Assembly (NCBI GenBank): GCA_009702965.1
Contig: WLHB01000001.1
Span: forward strand, 30,788-94,787
DNA from: Actinomycetota bacterium
GTDB taxonomy: Bacteria > Actinomycetota > Actinomycetes > Nanopelagicales > Nanopelagicaceae
Reading direction: 5' to 3'
Length of the DNA stretch: 64,000 bases
Position 1 is the stretch's first letter, and each line of letters opens with the position of its first letter. A program made the position numbers and the translations under genes. Positions 3,164-7,127 of this stretch are shown here, piece by piece. The notes beneath the pieces were generated by a model. That model saw nothing but the letters and a program-made list of their open reading frames with translations, had not been told where the DNA came from and ran no database searches.

Positions 3164-5044
3164 TTACCCTACTGTGATCGTCACCGTAGTTCCACGCTTG
3201 ACCTTCGTATTTATCTTCGGATTAATGCCAATCACTACCTTTGAGGTTTTCGTGACCTTCTTCACTTCAACAGTGAGCCCTAAATCTTCCAAGACGGCCA
3301 CAGCCCGCTCTTTGGTGTAACGCAAAATATTTGGGATAAATACAAAGGCAGATCCCCGCGAAATGAATATCTCAACTTGCGCACCAGCAGGAAGTGCAAC
3401 ACCAGCTGCAGGTTTCTGCGATATCACTTCGCCAGGCATTACGACCTCATCGTAAACATATGTGGGCGTCACATTGAATCCTGCATCTGTTAACTCATTA
3501 AGCGCCTGATCACCATTTTTTCCAACGTAAGAAGTTAAATCGAAAGTCTCGATACCTTTACTGACGACGAGGTCAACCAGAGTGTCTCGTTTTACTTGAG
3601 TTCCATTTTTCGGATTTGATGAGATTACTAATCCTTTAGGAACCTTGGCGTTAAAGACCTCAGTCACATCACCGGCCCGTAAAGGAGTTTCTGCCAGGAT
3701 TTTAAGCGCAGCGTCAGCTGTCATCTTTGTCAGTAGAGGTACTGCAAAGCGCTCGGCACCTTTCGATACGGTCAGAGAAACAACTCCGCCTGGATCAATT
3801 GAATCTCCAGCAGATGGATCTGTAGAAAGAACTCGACCCTTTGGAATCTCTTCGTCAAAGAGCTCTTGAGTAATAGTTGTCTCTAATCCAAGTGCAGTAA
3901 GGGTGGTATTAGCCTGCTCAACAGTGGCGCCAACGACAGAAGGAAATTTCACTGAAGCACCAGGTCCGGCCAGAACCCACCAGCCTGTCACTACAAGAAC
4001 AAGTGCTAAGGCGGCTGCGATCCAACGATTACGTCGCACTCGACTACTTACTTTTCTACGAGCCTTGACCTGATCTGTAGTCTCTGATGATTTCGCAGTT
4101 GGTTCAACTGCTGCAATCTTTTCAGAGCGCTTCTTTGTCTTTTCTCTCATCGGCGCAATCGGAATATCAAGTTCAAGACTTAGTTGAGGTGCGGATGGAT
4201 TCAGTGAATGTGAAATGGCTAGAAGTTCTGAATGAAATACCTGAGCATCACGGGGACGTTCATCAGGGTCAACTCGGGTAGCTCTGTAGATGAGGTCATC
4301 TAGCGCTTGCGGGACATTGTCTACAAGTGAACTAATTCGAGGGACTTGTGAGTTCACATGCATGAAGGCAATCTGTATCGGCTCATCTCCTTCAAAGGGT
4401 TTAGCGCCGGTAAAAATTTCAAAGGCGGTGATGGCCGCTGAATACACATCACTACGAGAATCGGCTATTCCTCGTGAAACCTGCTCTGGTGAAAGGTATG
4501 AAACGCTACCCAAGATCACACTTGATTCAGCTGTCATCGTGCTTCCGATCAGTGCGCCCTTGGCCAGGCCAAAGTCAGCAATTTTAATGCGGCCTTCTTT
4601 TGATACCAGAATGTTTTCAGGCTTTATGTCACGATGAACTATTCCCAACTTGTGGGCTGCTCCTAAAGCACTTAAGACTGGGAGTAAAAACTTTATTCCA
4701 TCTGCAATCGGAATTGTTCCGCGCTCGGTTAAGTACTCTCTTAAGGTATGTCCGACAACCATCTCCATCACAATAAAGACAGCAGGAACTCCACTTTGAT
4801 TCCACCCTTGATCTTGCACAGAGACAATGTTTGGGTGGCTTAGCGCAGCAGCGGCCTTTGCTTCTCGAATAAATCTTTCAACAAATTGTTCATCTTGAGC
4901 AAGGTGAGCGTGCATGATCTTCACCGCTACGCGACGATCAAGTCGAGTATCTATCGCCTCATAGATTGTCGCCATTCCTCCAGAGCCCATTTGCTTCAGG
5001 AGCTGATAGCGCCCATCGATGAGATGGCCAGTGAGATCAGACAT
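3164..5044 (-). CDS. PASTA-domain Ser/Thr protein kinase (PknL/Stk1-like)
   Basis: GSGGMA, VAVK, HRDIKPEN, DFG and SPE motifs, one TM helix, about 4 PASTA repeats; genomic position typical of pknL. Confidence 0.92.
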   Translation of the reverse strand: MSDLTGHLIDGRYQLLKQMGSGGMATIYEAIDTRLDRRVAVKIMHAHLAQDEQFVERFIREAKAAAALSHPNIVSVQDQGWNQSGVPAVFIVMEMVVGHTLREYLTERGTIPIADGIKFLLPVLSALGAAHKLGIVHRDIKPENILVSKEGRIKIADFGLAKGALIGSTMTAESSVILGSVSYLSPEQVSRGIADSRSDVYSAAITAFEIFTGAKPFEGDEPIQIAFMHVNSQVPRISSLVDNVPQALDDLIYRATRVDPDERPRDAQVFHSELLAISHSLNPSAPQLSLELDIPIAPMREKTKKRSEKIAAVEPTAKSSETTDQVKARRKVSSRVRRNRWIAAALALVLVVTGWWVLAGPGASVKFPSVVGATVEQANTTLTALGLETTITQELFDEEIPKGRVLSTDPSAGDSIDPGGVVSLTVSKGAERFAVPLLTKMTADAALKILAETPLRAGDVTEVFNAKVPKGLVISSNPKNGTQVKRDTLVDLVVSKGIETFDLTSYVGKNGDQALNELTDAGFNVTPTYVYDEVVMPGEVISQKPAAGVALPAGAQVEIFISRGSAFVFIPNILRYTKERAVAVLEDLGLTVEVKKVTKTSKVVIGINPKINTKVKRGTTVTITVG

Positions 5045-5053
5045 GGGTAAATT

Positions 5054-5590
5054 TTAGGTTGAAAGTACGAATTCAGAGCGCTCTTTCGTGCGATCGCTGA
5101 TGAAGTGTTGCTCCTGTTCTTCTAGCCACAAAGTCATCGAGTCCAAAATCTCTTCTCCATCGCGCTCTATAACTCGCTTGAATCCAACTGTTGGGTCAAG
5201 ATCAAGCCAAATCGATGTCGAGAGATATTCCTCAATAGCACGTTGCGAACTTCCAACACCTTCGAGGATCAGCAGTGATGTACTGCCATGAAGACGCGGA
5301 GAGTCAAAGCGTTTTTCTGACCAGTTAAAGGGGGAGTAGATCAGATCCTTCTTTGCCTTATGACAGCTGGTGATCCACGTCAGTGATTCCGTGAGTTTTT
5401 CTCCAAGCGCTCCATCCCACCCTGCATACAGATCATCCATATGGATCACCGTAATTGTGAAGTCATTAGATAGGGCGAGAGAAAGTGTCGAAGCGAGAGT
5501 GGTTTTCCCCGCACCTGCCGGCCCATCAATGGCGATGATGGGCTGATCAGATTTGCTACAAATATCAGCGAGTGCTGCGATAAGTTCCAT
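5054..5590 (-). CDS. P-loop kinase, uridine/nucleoside kinase-like
   Basis: IAIDGPAGAGKTT Walker A, HMDDLY and LILEG; likely start ATG 5590, overlapping the end of the PnuC gene. Confidence 0.82.
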   Translation of the reverse strand: MELIAALADICSKSDQPIIAIDGPAGAGKTTLASTLSLALSNDFTITVIHMDDLYAGWDGALGEKLTESLTWITSCHKAKKDLIYSPFNWSEKRFDSPRLHGSTSLLILEGVGSSQRAIEEYLSTSIWLDLDPTVGFKRVIERDGEEILDSMTLWLEEQEQHFISDRTKERSEFVLST

Positions 5591-6110
5591 ACCATTGCCT
5601 CCACCCAACTGCCGCAACAATTGTAAATACAAAGAATAGAGCAGAGGTAAGAAAGACTTCTTGTGAGTAGAAAAGCGCTGTATATCCAATATTGATGACA
5701 AGCCACATCGGCCAAGCTTCATACTTTTGGTAGACCATCAACATCTGAGCCGCGATTGAGCCAAAAAATAGCCCAGCATCGGCATACGTTGACGCTGCAC
5801 CGAGTCGTTCAAGAATTGGGGCAAGCCCTAAGGTAAGAATGAGAATTAAGAGAAGAAGGTAGATGCGATAAGAGTTCTTGATTCTTCCCGGAACGGCTCC
5901 TTTCTTTCCCCAACCAAACCAGCCTGCAATCGCTGCTGCAATGAAAACTAATTGAAGTGCAGAGCTAGCAAAGTAATCAGATTGAAGGTAGAAAACTCCA
6001 TAAAGAGCACTGCCTAGTATCCAGAATGGCCAGGTAATTCTCTTTCCAGTTACGCCAAGTGAGACTGCGATAAATGAGACAGTTGCTGCAACTATTTCTA
6101 GGGTCGACAT
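5565..6110 (-). CDS. PnuC-family vitamin transporter (probably thiamine-related, PnuT-like)
   Basis: PnuC-type pattern (LEIVA, TWPFWI, ALQL, GWFGW, AQMLM..QKYEAWPMW); preceded by a TPP-like riboswitch. Confidence 0.85.
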   Translation of the reverse strand: MSTLEIVAATVSFIAVSLGVTGKRITWPFWILGSALYGVFYLQSDYFASSALQLVFIAAAIAGWFGWGKKGAVPGRIKNSYRIYLLLLILILTLGLAPILERLGAASTYADAGLFFGSIAAQMLMVYQKYEAWPMWLVINIGYTALFYSQEVFLTSALFFVFTIVAAVGWRQWYGTYRSTR

Positions 6111-6211
6111 GAGTGATTCCTTTCCGCGTCCGCATTACCGGACGGGTCTAGCGGTCGATCTCACGTTGAGATCCTCTCAGCAGCGCTTGTAATAAGCGCA
6201 TGTGCTCCCGC
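6111..6211 (-). ncRNA. TPP-class riboswitch, structurally variant
   Basis: Minus strand reads GCGGGAGCA-[GCGCUU/AAGCGC stem]-UGCUGAGAG-[GAUCUCA/UGAGAUC stem]-GACCGC-UAGACCCGUCCG-GUAAUG-CGGACGCGGAAAGGA then AUG. It has the CUGAGA hallmark, P2 GCGG/CCGC and L5 GUAAUG. Confidence 0.85.
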
Positions 6212-6215
6212 GTTT

Positions 6216-7127
6216 TTAGTCTAGCGCACGACGAGCAGAAAGAGCCTGAACGTATGCCTTACCCGCCACACGAATCCTGCGGGCAGTAGATGTCTTGGCA
6301 CGTTTATTAAAAACGTCATAGCCGATTGCTTCGACTTCATCAACGATTCCACAGTAGAGCTCACTAGCAGCGCGAATACAGGGCCGGCTCGTTGGGTGCA
6401 ACAAATCAATACCAGGATCGGCTTCTCTTTGTAATTCTCGCACTCGTGCAATTTGAAACTTAAGGGCACGAACTATCTCAGGGGTTAACTTTCTGGCATA
6501 GAGCATCTCTTCATCAACACCATCGGCGGCGAGCTCATCAAGAGGTAGGTAGATGCGCCCTCTATCAAGATCTTCTCCAACATCTCGAATGAAGTTCGCC
6601 AATTGGAAAGCGACTCCAAGTTTTTCCGCCGGTGCGTAAGCGCCATCAGAAAGAGGGCCGAGAATAGGAACCATTTGAAGCCCAATCACGGCTGCAGATC
6701 CATAGACGTATTCACTTAAATCCTTGAATGTTGCGTATGTACCTACTGTTAAATCCATCTCCATAGAGTGAAGAAAATCAACGAAGTGTTGGTGGGGGAT
6801 TTTAAATCGTGTGACTGTATCAACAAGGGCAGCCCCTACTGCGTCACTACTTTTTCCAGTTTCCAAATCCTTAAGAACCCCTGAGCTCCACTTATGAAGA
6901 GCATCTGCCTTTTCTTGGGGCGAAAGCGTTGATGCTAAATCATCAACAATCTCATCGGCATATCGCGCAAACCCATAAAGTGCGTGGACAAAGGGCCGCT
7001 TTTCTTTCGGCAAAAGGAGAGTTGCTAAGTAATAAGTTTTTCCATGGAGAGAATTAAGTCTTTTACACTCGCTATATGATGCACGCAGGGCAGGATCAGA
7101 GATGCCTGCAGCATCTAACTCATTCAT
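6216..7127 (-). CDS. crtB: Phytoene synthase
   Basis: LYGFARYADEIVDD and AFQLANFIRDVGED..RGRIYLP motifs. Confidence 0.95.
   Translation of the reverse strand: MNELDAAGISDPALRASYSECKRLNSLHGKTYYLATLLLPKEKRPFVHALYGFARYADEIVDDLASTLSPQEKADALHKWSSGVLKDLETGKSSDAVGAALVDTVTRFKIPHQHFVDFLHSMEMDLTVGTYATFKDLSEYVYGSAAVIGLQMVPILGPLSDGAYAPAEKLGVAFQLANFIRDVGEDLDRGRIYLPLDELAADGVDEEMLYARKLTPEIVRALKFQIARVRELQREADPGIDLLHPTSRPCIRAASELYCGIVDEVEAIGYDVFNKRAKTSTARRIRVAGKAYVQALSARRALD

What the first reader, a model, noticed from the sequence alone, without database searches (positions are those of the whole stretch)
6111..6223. TPP-like riboswitch with no P1 and a collapsed pyrophosphate pocket: candidate altered-ligand variant
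Seen: the pyrimidine-sensing arm is canonical (GGGAG...CUGAGA, P2 GCGG/CCGC, P3 and an extra stem), and L5 is GUAAUG. The other arm reads ACC-CG-UCCG-GUAAUG-CGGA-CG-C-GG rather than ACCU-GAU-NNNN-loop-NNNN-CG-U-AGG. The J4/5 'AU' is missing, so the conserved CG can pair into a continuous 6-bp helix (CGUCCG/CGGACG). No 5' P1 strand is available, and a TAGACT -10 overlapping the crtB stop puts the start site at about 6211, the first base of P2. The SD (AAAGGA) abuts the aptamer. Established: the J4/5-J5/4 loop binds Mg-pyrophosphate of TPP. Inference: this RNA may sense unphosphorylated thiamine, a precursor or a degradation product, and act by direct SD occlusion. Some actinobacterial TPP aptamers have a shortened J4/5, so novelty needs testing.
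Basis: partly seen in the sequence, partly recalled or inferred. Interest (0 to 1): 0.85.

Follow-up and report, generated by a model that had tools for sequence, protein, structure and literature searches.

The report
Thiamine riboswitch lacking pyrophosphate pocket
A vitamin-B1 riboswitch conserved across abundant freshwater actinobacteria has its pyrophosphate-gripping loop replaced by a plain helix, and likely senses thiamine and its phosphates alike to turn down a likely thiamine transporter and a candidate thiamine kinase; variants of this kind were briefly reported in 2017.

Summary
Real and conserved, not decay. The element is a TPP-riboswitch derivative (RF00059, 30.4 bits, under the 54.3 cut-off). 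It precedes a Pnu transporter in 101 of 104 loci and scores 69-97 bits in 137 of 151 genomes of the family. The pyrimidine arm is intact. P4 and P5 fuse into an 8-bp helix with at most one bulge (91 of 95 sequences), and the former G60/G78 position swaps among A-U, G-C and C-G, so the pocket is gone. A -10 element precedes P2 in 95 of 95 and P1 is absent, but 11 of 16 canonical actinobacterial TPP riboswitches also lack it. The cassette (transporter plus P-loop kinase) stands where relatives have a TPP riboswitch with thiO-thiS-thiG. Best reading: an OFF switch that reads thiamine, TMP and TPP alike; binding is untested. Precursor sensing is unlikely because the salvage genes were not found. 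McCown 2017 mentions such variants; Kang 2017 noted this element. This scan found it before on other DNA.

The parts
6218..6223 (-). Predicted -10 promoter element (TANNNT type, preceded by GC); places the start site about at the first base of P2
   Evidence: TANNNT ends 6-10 nt before the P2 core in 95 of 95 distinct upstream sequences; shuffles mean 12.3, max 24; same-width windows further upstream 2-11. It is also present where the upstream gene is divergent. Start site not measured.
6124..6211 (-). TPP-riboswitch-derived aptamer without P1 and without the J4/5-J5/4 loop
   Evidence: RF00059 30.4 bits; own model R1 85.5 bits, which contains this sequence by construction; fold
6151..6211 (-). 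Pyrimidine-sensing arm: P2 (6211-6208 / 6154-6151), P3 (6205-6180), J3/2 UGAGA (6179-6175), P3a (6174-6157)
   Evidence: UGAGA, the G-C pairs opening P3 and most of the P2 core are invariant in 95 sequences; P3a covaries on both sides at 5 of 6 pairs
6124..6146 (-). Fused P4/P5 helix, 8 bp, one bulged C (6126), loop L5 GUAAUG (6138-6133); replaces the pyrophosphate pocket
   Evidence: 8 of 8 pairs with at most one 3' bulge in 91 of 95; 99.1% of cells paired over the six inner pairs; pair 6 is AU 53, GC 26, CG 13, other 3
6118..6123 (-). Junction adenosines (predicted equivalents of G83/A84) and Shine-Dalgarno-like AAAGGA directly after the helix
   Evidence: A before the arm in 94 of 95; A at +1 in 88 and at +2 in 94 of 95; start codon 13 nt after the arm here
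5565..6110 (-). Pnu-family transporter, likely thiamine transporter PnuT (181 aa)
   Evidence: PF04973 E 1.8e-34; TIGR01528 65.9 bits; WxxWxxxD/N motif; substrate inferred from the riboswitch and context, as in PMC5301498
5054..5590 (-). Small P-loop kinase of uridine-kinase-like fold, overlapping the transporter's end by 26 nt; candidate thiamine kinase
   Evidence: PRK06547-like, E 6.6e-24 but below cut-off; model pLDDT 96, best fold matches uridine kinases and phosphoribulokinases; follows the transporter in 98 of 101 loci, the other 3 are cut short; start read from the sequence
6216..7127 (-). crtB (phytoene synthase), upstream synteny marker; not part of the system
   Evidence: PF00494 E 3.3e-69
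3164..5044 (-). Ser/Thr protein kinase gene (pknB/pknL-like; name recalled from its sequence, no family scan), downstream synteny marker
   Evidence: Follows in 98 of 101 loci and follows thiG in relatives

Best explanation
This is a TPP-riboswitch derivative whose pyrophosphate-binding loop has become a plain 8-bp helix; it likely binds the aminopyrimidine end of thiamine, TMP and TPP with little discrimination and likely lowers translation of a predicted thiamine transporter and its overlapping candidate thiamine kinase. Shown: the structure, its conservation, the gene context, and that de novo and precursor-salvage genes were not found in the complete genomes tested. Inferred: transcription starts at P2. 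The ligand's pyrimidine enters the UGAGA pocket and L5 docks on P3. The junction adenosines after the helix, which open the ribosome-binding site, pack onto P2, so the 30S subunit loses access with no separate expression platform. Thiamine diffuses in through PnuT, is trapped as TMP by the P-loop kinase, and ThiL makes TPP.
For: Pocket gone: the G60/G78-equivalent pair is Watson-Crick in 92 of 95, in three pair types, with 8 changes on a 93-protein quick tree; the G-C state needs 5 changes, at least 3 forced by well-supported branches. In E. coli thiM, G60, A61, C77 and G78 hold Mg2+ and the beta-phosphate (bioRxiv 10.1101/2025.01.21.634073, passages). Pyrimidine pocket, L5 and junction adenosines are kept; A56-G83 and A53-A84 dock on P2 (PMC3764141, passages). 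Variants mutated in this core bind thiamine about as well as TMP and TPP (PMC5473149, passages, citing unpublished work). Thiamine link: the cassette occupies the crtB-pknB interval that holds a canonical TPP riboswitch with thiO-thiS-thiG in 5 of 5 genus-g7 loci. ThiL is over the cut-off in 5 of 5; thiamine pyrophosphokinase was found in 0 of 5 and 0 of 45; ThiE, ThiB, ThiC and YkoE in 0 of 4 variant genomes each over the cut-off, each with a positive control. Shewanella PnuT binds thiamine but not TMP or TPP (PMC5749112, passages). For keeping a response to the phosphorylated forms: a same-shaped fused arm precedes thiO in G280, and the variant directly precedes the kinase in G112 and G088. 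In both, repression by products makes more sense than repression by free thiamine (inference).
Against: No binding or reporter data exist for this RNA. The 2017 statement gives no sequences in the passages read, so it may not cover fully fused arms. Predicted stability of the fused arm equals that of canonical arms (-10.1 against -9.7 kcal/mol), so no gain in pre-folding is shown to offset the lost contacts. The helix is predicted to form without ligand (pairs 5 and 6 at 0.92 and 0.88), so switching must rest on tertiary docking alone. Overlap of the anti-SD duplex with the helix end (86 of 95) is only modestly above shuffled tails (mean 65.6). The transporter's substrate is untested. The kinase family is widespread (93 of 201 class genomes), also in genomes with thiG (11 of 11 in genus g46), and 14 of 20 inspected homologue regions show no thiamine link.
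Confidence: 0.6

Rival explanations
1. True specificity switch: the closed helix excludes the diphosphate, so the RNA prefers unphosphorylated thiamine and reports the transporter's own substrate.
For: All loci of this transporter clade with readable upstream DNA carry a pocket-less arm, including five genomes of two other families with different arm sequences. PnuT delivers free thiamine. In larger relatives that use thiB, the arm is mostly canonical.
Against: The published statement reports similar affinities, not reversal. A fused arm precedes thiO in G280, and the variant directly precedes the kinase in G112 and G088, where repression by free thiamine alone makes little sense. Trapping should keep free thiamine low (inference).
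Confidence: 0.15
2. Still TPP-selective: the diphosphate and Mg2+ are held by new contacts, for example in the major groove at the conserved G of pair 5 and U-A of pair 4.
For: Pair 5 has G on the 5' side in 91 of 95 and pair 4 is U-A in 91 of 95, more constant than a plain helix needs. An A61G change in thiM did not reduce switching by TPP. It is the only TPP-type element the model found in each of the 137 genomes.
Against: The C77/G78 equivalents, which bind the beta-phosphate, vary freely. The arm is 2 nt shorter on the 5' side and 1-2 nt shorter on the 3' side than the canonical arm.
Confidence: 0.12
3. No longer a ligand switch: a stable leader kept for mRNA protection or to set a fixed translation level in streamlined cells.
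For: The arm is predicted to fold without ligand; no P1 and no alternative structure was found.
Against: UGAGA and the L5 core are invariant in 95 sequences while the stems covary. These bases serve ligand binding and arm docking in the parent class.
Confidence: 0.08
4. It senses a pyrimidine precursor or thiamine breakdown product (HMP, amino-HMP) and the Pnu protein imports that compound.
For: Only the pyrimidine-binding half is intact. The kinase has a nucleoside-kinase fold of unknown substrate.
Against: Complete variant-bearing genomes gave no ThiE (0 of 4 over the cut-off), TenA (0 of 5) or ThiC (0 of 4), and only partial ThiD-type matches (2 of 4, 24 and 37 bits, against 311 in the control). 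An imported precursor could not be built into TPP by a known route. The known HMP-PP riboswitch is a different RNA (PMC6478431, passages), and no Rfam family reached its cut-off here.
Confidence: 0.05

Closest known systems
TPP riboswitch / THI element (Rfam RF00059; E. coli thiM)
   Same: P2, P3, UGAGA pyrimidine pocket, optional P3a, L5 loop, junction adenosines, thiamine-gene context
   Different: No J4/5-J5/4 loop; 8-bp fused arm; no P1; scores 27.6-46 bits, below the 54.3 cut-off, so standard annotation misses it
[quoted passage not shown] 'in prep.', cited in McCown et al. 2017, PMC5473149)
   Same: Altered P4-P5 region with the rest of the aptamer kept; present in many bacteria (passages)
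   Different: No sequences or consensus in the passages read, so identity cannot be checked. Here the loop is wholly replaced by covarying pairs, an extreme form: among 59 parsed actinomycete hits outside the family, 38 have an altered J4/5 with CG kept and only 3 lack the CG
THI element upstream of acI pnuC/pnuT (Kang et al. 2017, PMC5301498)
   Same: The same element and gene, found with RF00059 in four acI genomes and read as a thiamine transporter (passages)
   Different: The passages read do not note the missing pocket, the missing P1 or the kinase
Actinobacterial TPP riboswitches acting by direct translation attenuation (Barrick and Breaker 2007, PMC2258182)
   Same: Purine-rich 3' end of the aptamer serves as ribosome-binding site; most frequent in Actinobacteria (passages); short or absent P1 in 11 of 16 canonical examples here
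   Different: Those keep the GAU/CG pocket
PnuT plus kinase uptake-and-trap modules (Shewanella PnuT, PMC5749112)
   Same: Pnu transporter with WxxWxxxD/N motif, next to a kinase gene
   Different: The kinase here is uridine-kinase-like, not thiamine pyrophosphokinase or ThiK; its activity is untested
HMP-PP riboswitch (thiS motif, PMC6478431)
   Same: Senses a thiamine-pathway compound other than TPP
   Different: A terminator-embedded aptamer of other architecture (passages); no Rfam match at the cut-off in this window

Membership tests
TPP riboswitch (RF00059) | Score at or above the Rfam gathering cut-off (54.3 bits) | tested here: not met
   30.4 bits; family orthologues 27.6-46 bits
TPP riboswitch (RF00059) | Pyrimidine sensor: P2, P3 and UGAGA in J3/2 | tested here: met
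   UGAGA and the first two P3 pairs invariant in 95 of 95; P2 core paired in at least 94 of 95
TPP riboswitch (RF00059) | L5 loop (UAAU-type) on P5 | tested here: met
   GUAAUG or AUAAUG in 95 of 95; the search pattern required this loop, but 101 of 104 loci matched it
TPP riboswitch (RF00059) | J4/5 (GAU) and J5/4 (CG) internal loop that binds Mg2+-pyrophosphate | tested here: not met
   Continuous 8-bp helix in 91 of 95; CG in 4 of 95 and then paired or partly paired
TPP riboswitch (RF00059) | P1 closing helix | tested here: not met
   At most 2 bp in 83 of 95, equal to the mismatched-partner control (81.8); but also at most 2 bp in 11 of 16 canonical actinobacterial examples
TPP riboswitch (RF00059) | Junction adenosines (A56, A84) docking on P2 | tested here: met
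   A before the arm 94 of 95; A at +2 94 of 95; role from PMC3764141; the contact itself was not modelled
TPP riboswitch (RF00059) | Upstream of thiamine synthesis or uptake genes | tested here: inconclusive
   Pnu transporter of untested substrate at the thiO-thiS-thiG site; thiamine role inferred
TPP riboswitch (RF00059) | Strong preference for TPP over TMP and thiamine | not testable with these tools
   Needs in-line probing or ITC
Pyrophosphate-core TPP variants (McCown 2017) | Mutations in the P4-P5 pyrophosphate core with the rest of the aptamer kept | tested here: met
   against the description
Pyrophosphate-core TPP variants (McCown 2017) | Similar affinity for thiamine, TMP and TPP | not testable with these tools
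   Biochemical property
Pyrophosphate-core TPP variants (McCown 2017) | Sequence present in that study's collection | not tested
   The paper's supplements were not consulted; the cited study was not found
PnuT thiamine transporter | Pnu family with WxxWxxxD/N motif | tested here: met
   PF04973; both Trp invariant, followed by D or N, in 32 aligned proteins
PnuT thiamine transporter | Transports thiamine | not testable with these tools
   The motif is shared with PnuC, so it does not fix the substrate
Known thiamine kinases (ThiK, thiamine pyrophosphokinase) | Homology to TIGR02721 or PF04263 | tested here: not met
   The neighbouring kinase matches neither; its fold is uridine-kinase-like

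The most novel reading that the evidence does not exclude
A thiamine-selective riboswitch class, derived from the TPP aptamer by closing the pyrophosphate pocket, that travels with one PnuT clade and is paired with an undescribed uridine-kinase-fold thiamine kinase filling the thiamine-to-TMP gap in actinobacteria.
Probability: 0.15. Interest if true: 0.8.

Novelty: new variant of a known kind. Interest (0 to 1): 0.5.

Why it matters
It gives a clean natural test of what the TPP aptamer does without its pyrophosphate pocket and without P1: 95 distinct covarying sequences of about 80-100 nt, easy to make and probe. A class of relaxed-specificity TPP variants was announced in 2017, but no description turned up in the searches run. 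The element falls below the Rfam cut-off, so the apparent vitamin B1 control point of acI bacteria, among the most abundant freshwater groups, is missed by routine annotation. The linked kinase is a directly testable candidate for the missing thiamine-to-TMP step in genomes that have ThiL but no known thiamine kinase or pyrophosphokinase. It is not a new architecture, and specialists already expect such variants.

Tried and rejected
Sequencing error or one-off decay: rejected; 101 of 104 loci carry it and close relatives have the same arm. Start site from RNA data: four metatranscriptome runs were available only as sparse contigs, none across the 5' end, so no information. The sigma-70 scanner found no promoter or terminator; the -10 claim rests on positional conservation instead. 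RF00059 over the own genome found nothing at E<=1, a filter miss given. Phage carriage: 0 exact pattern matches in viral contigs. The idea that the fused arm is more stable than a canonical one was not supported. Anti-SD overlap with the helix end was weak against shuffled tails. Kinase as a marker of thiamine auxotrophy across the class: not supported, although inside the family it was not found in 0 of 6 g7 and 0 of 2 g15 genomes, the genera where thiO-thiS-thiG was seen at this site. A SteA-type protein as alternative pyrophosphokinase: 0 of 5. One ThiK-like match in G009 (67 bits, cut-off 299) and a weak one in G128 are not ThiK by the cut-off but were not examined further. The careful tree did not finish; the quick tree was used. 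The protein atlas did not answer. Serganov 2006 and Weinberg 2017 (PNAS) were not held, so structural roles come from secondary passages.

Full report
Observation. The described sequence is present on the minus strand between crtB (6216-7127, PF00494) and a Pnu-family transporter gene (5565-6110, PF04973). Rfam finds nothing in the window at its cut-offs. On the local kilobase it aligns the element to the TPP model at 30.4 bits (cut-off 54.3), with a two-base gap in J4/5 and P1 unpaired. Folded from 6212, the leader gives P2, P3, P3a and a hairpin of 8 bp with one bulged C as both best and centroid structure (z -2.2).

Conservation. The transporter has a match in 128 of 151 family genomes. Public records of its closest relatives are named Ca. 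Planktophila and Nanopelagicaceae, the acI lineage. Of 107 loci taken, 104 gave a transporter match and 101 of these carry the motif upstream; the 3 without are distant homologues of 22-24% identity. After removing duplicates, 95 distinct sequences remain, the window's included. In a second, partly overlapping set of 110 loci, 104 carry it, 4 are cut off upstream and 2 are distant homologues. A covariance model built on the 95 scores 69-97 bits in 137 of 151 genomes of the order sample, all of one family, with one match each. Eleven more genomes score 51 bits or less (those inspected are canonical or near-canonical TPP riboswitches) and 3 have no match. These genomes are kin and not independent.

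The pocket is gone. In 91 of 95 sequences the arm forms 8 of 8 pairs with at most one 3' bulge; the bulge, where present, lies mostly after pair 6 (46 of 95), at the place of U79 in E. coli thiM (numbering recalled). The CG that follows P5 in canonical aptamers is found in 4 of 95. The pair at the G60/G78 position is A-U in 53, G-C in 26, C-G in 13 and unpaired in 3; 99.1% of cells over the six inner pairs are paired, and sliding the partners drops whole-structure pairing from 98% to 19-40%. On a quick tree of 93 transporter proteins this pair changes 8 times; the G-C state needs 5 changes, at least 3 forced by well-supported branches (four rows are mislabelled because their bulge lies elsewhere). 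In thiM, G60 and A61 coordinate Mg2+ and C77 and G78 bind the beta-phosphate (bioRxiv 10.1101/2025.01.21.634073, passages). By contrast UGAGA, the P2 core, the L5 core and the adenosines flanking the arm are nearly or fully invariant. These carry pyrimidine binding and arm docking in the parent class (PMC3764141 and PMC2258182, passages).

Promoter, P1 and ribosome site. A TANNNT hexamer ends 6-10 nt before the P2 core in 95 of 95 upstream sequences (shuffle mean 12.3, maximum 24), also where the upstream gene is divergent. Transcription therefore likely starts within a few bases of P2. RNA data gave no start site. Possible P1 pairing is at most 2 bp in 83 of 95, the same as with mismatched partners (81.8). 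However, 11 of 16 canonical actinobacterial TPP riboswitches also have at most 2 bp, and all 16 have a TANNNT 8-14 nt upstream, so the missing P1 is a lineage trait. The start codon lies 9-16 nt after the arm in 87 of 95. Use of the aptamer's purine-rich 3' end as ribosome-binding site is published for TPP riboswitches and is most frequent in Actinobacteria (PMC2258182, passages). The predicted anti-SD duplex, using the 16S tail found in 5 of 5 genomes (mature end not known), reaches into the helix in 86 of 95, against 65.6 for shuffled tails, which is weak support. The fused arm is not predicted to be more stable than canonical arms and should form without ligand, so any switching must come from tertiary docking.

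What it controls. A small P-loop kinase follows the transporter in 98 of 101 loci; the other 3 are cut short. Here it overlaps the transporter's end. In 5 of 5 genus-g7 loci examined, and in G014, a TPP riboswitch region with thiO-thiS-thiG lies directly before the same pknB-like gene, with thiE divergent. thiE is confirmed by PF02581 and thiG indirectly through G280; thiO and thiS were named from recalled motifs. Complete variant-bearing genomes have ThiL. Thiamine pyrophosphokinase was not found (0 of 5, 0 of 45), nor ThiE, ThiB, ThiC or YkoE (0 of 4 each over the cut-off), TenA or SteA (0 of 5). ThiD gave only partial matches and ThiK none over the cut-off. Kang et al. 2017 already reported acI thiamine auxotrophy and a THI element before pnuC, read as PnuT (PMC5301498, passages). 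Shewanella PnuT carries thiamine by facilitated diffusion and ignores TMP and TPP, and pnu genes often lie beside trapping kinases (PMC5749112, passages). These cells therefore likely need intact thiamine and a thiamine-to-TMP kinase.

The kinase. It has Walker A, a HMDDLY motif and an LILEG motif and folds like uridine kinase and phosphoribulokinase. For a thiamine role: it stands directly behind the variant, with no transporter, in G112 and G088 (one genus, likely one event). It ends canonical TPP-riboswitch ABC-transporter operons in G198, G300, G320 and G386 (ykoE identified in two). I chose G198 and G300 because a riboswitch hit lay nearby, so this is not a random sample. It stays at the locus in relatives whose TPP riboswitch controls thiB elsewhere and was found in 0 of 8 g7 and g15 genomes. 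Against: the family occurs in 93 of 201 class genomes, many with thiG, and 14 of 20 inspected regions show no thiamine link. It is a candidate only.

Wider setting. The transporter clade occurs outside the family in 5 of 378 other class genomes (two weak hits are other Pnu proteins). All five have an arm without the J5/4 CG loop; three lack this kinase beside them, and in the one examined (G233) an AAA_28 kinase follows instead. So the riboswitch may have travelled with the transporter rather than descended in place from the thiO leader; the data do not decide. Among 61 of the best-scoring outside hits of the model (3 from unpublished genomes left out), 59 could be parsed: 13 canonical, 38 with altered or shortened J4/5 but CG kept, 5 two bases shorter with the CG able to pair, and 3 without CG, one of them an 8-bp fused arm before thiO in G280. 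This sample is biased towards short arms. The acI form is the extreme end of an actinobacterial continuum.

Mechanism and rivals. Most likely (0.6) the RNA reads thiamine, TMP and TPP with little discrimination and lowers translation by locking the junction purines that open the ribosome-binding site. This agrees with the statement that pyrophosphate-core variants bind thiamine about as well as TMP and TPP (PMC5473149, passages, citing unpublished work), and with fused arms before thiO and before the kinase. Rivals: thiamine-selective switch 0.15, TPP selectivity through new contacts 0.12, non-switching leader 0.08, precursor sensing 0.05. No binding was tested.

Novelty. Ten literature searches found no description of this fused-arm form; the library lacks most subscription papers. 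Eight papers were read as passages only; no supplements were opened, and those of PMC5473149 may hold these sequences. The element itself and the idea of such variants are in print. Earlier notes of this scan reached the same reading on other DNA; I saw them after forming mine, and they are not independent evidence. Verdict: a real new variant of a known kind, interest 0.5.

Noticed in passing
window 5054-5590 (-): Uridine-kinase-fold P-loop kinase (PRK06547-like) overlapping the transporter gene; candidate for the missing thiamine kinase in genomes with ThiL but no known thiamine kinase. It also ends TPP-riboswitch ABC-transporter operons in G198, G300, G320 and G386.
   Followed up: partly
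L192:1564-2237 (-) and L193:1492-2165 (-) (G112, G088): The variant riboswitch stands directly before the kinase; the transporter gene is missing at this locus.
   Followed up: partly
L195:4909-6261 (-) (G280): An 8-bp fused arm with one bulge, the same shape as the acI variant, precedes thiO-thiS-thiG in another actinomycete family; possibly independent.
   Followed up: partly
L194:3967-5246 (-) (G233); also L223, L224: The same transporter clade with a differently built pocket-less arm; in G233 it is followed by an AAA_28 P-loop kinase instead of the uridine-kinase-like one.
   Followed up: partly
L137 and L144 (G062, G049): TPP riboswitches before thiB-like genes with another altered arm lacking the J5/4 CG; G049 carries both this and the pnu-linked variant.
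   Followed up: no
L154-L177, L360-L399: Shortened or altered J4/5 is common among actinomycete TPP riboswitches: 46 of 59 parsed were non-canonical, in a sample biased towards short arms.
   Followed up: partly
L056 (record CAMCXZ010000005.1): The record is titled Bifidobacterium breve but its locus groups with Planktophila sequences; likely a mislabelled or mixed assembly.
   Followed up: no
G152:C109:104-201 and G152:C2:27831-27924: Two different copies of the variant, each before a transporter, in one assembly with 5% contamination; probably mixed bins.
   Followed up: no
G009:C1:706799-707449: A ThiK-like match (67 bits, cut-off 299) in one variant-bearing genome; could be another small-molecule kinase.
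   Followed up: no
window 6216-7127, relatives L012-L030: The two small genes that lie divergent between crtB and the riboswitch in many relatives (lycopene-cyclase-like; name recalled) are absent here and match contig C8 of the same genome.
   Followed up: no
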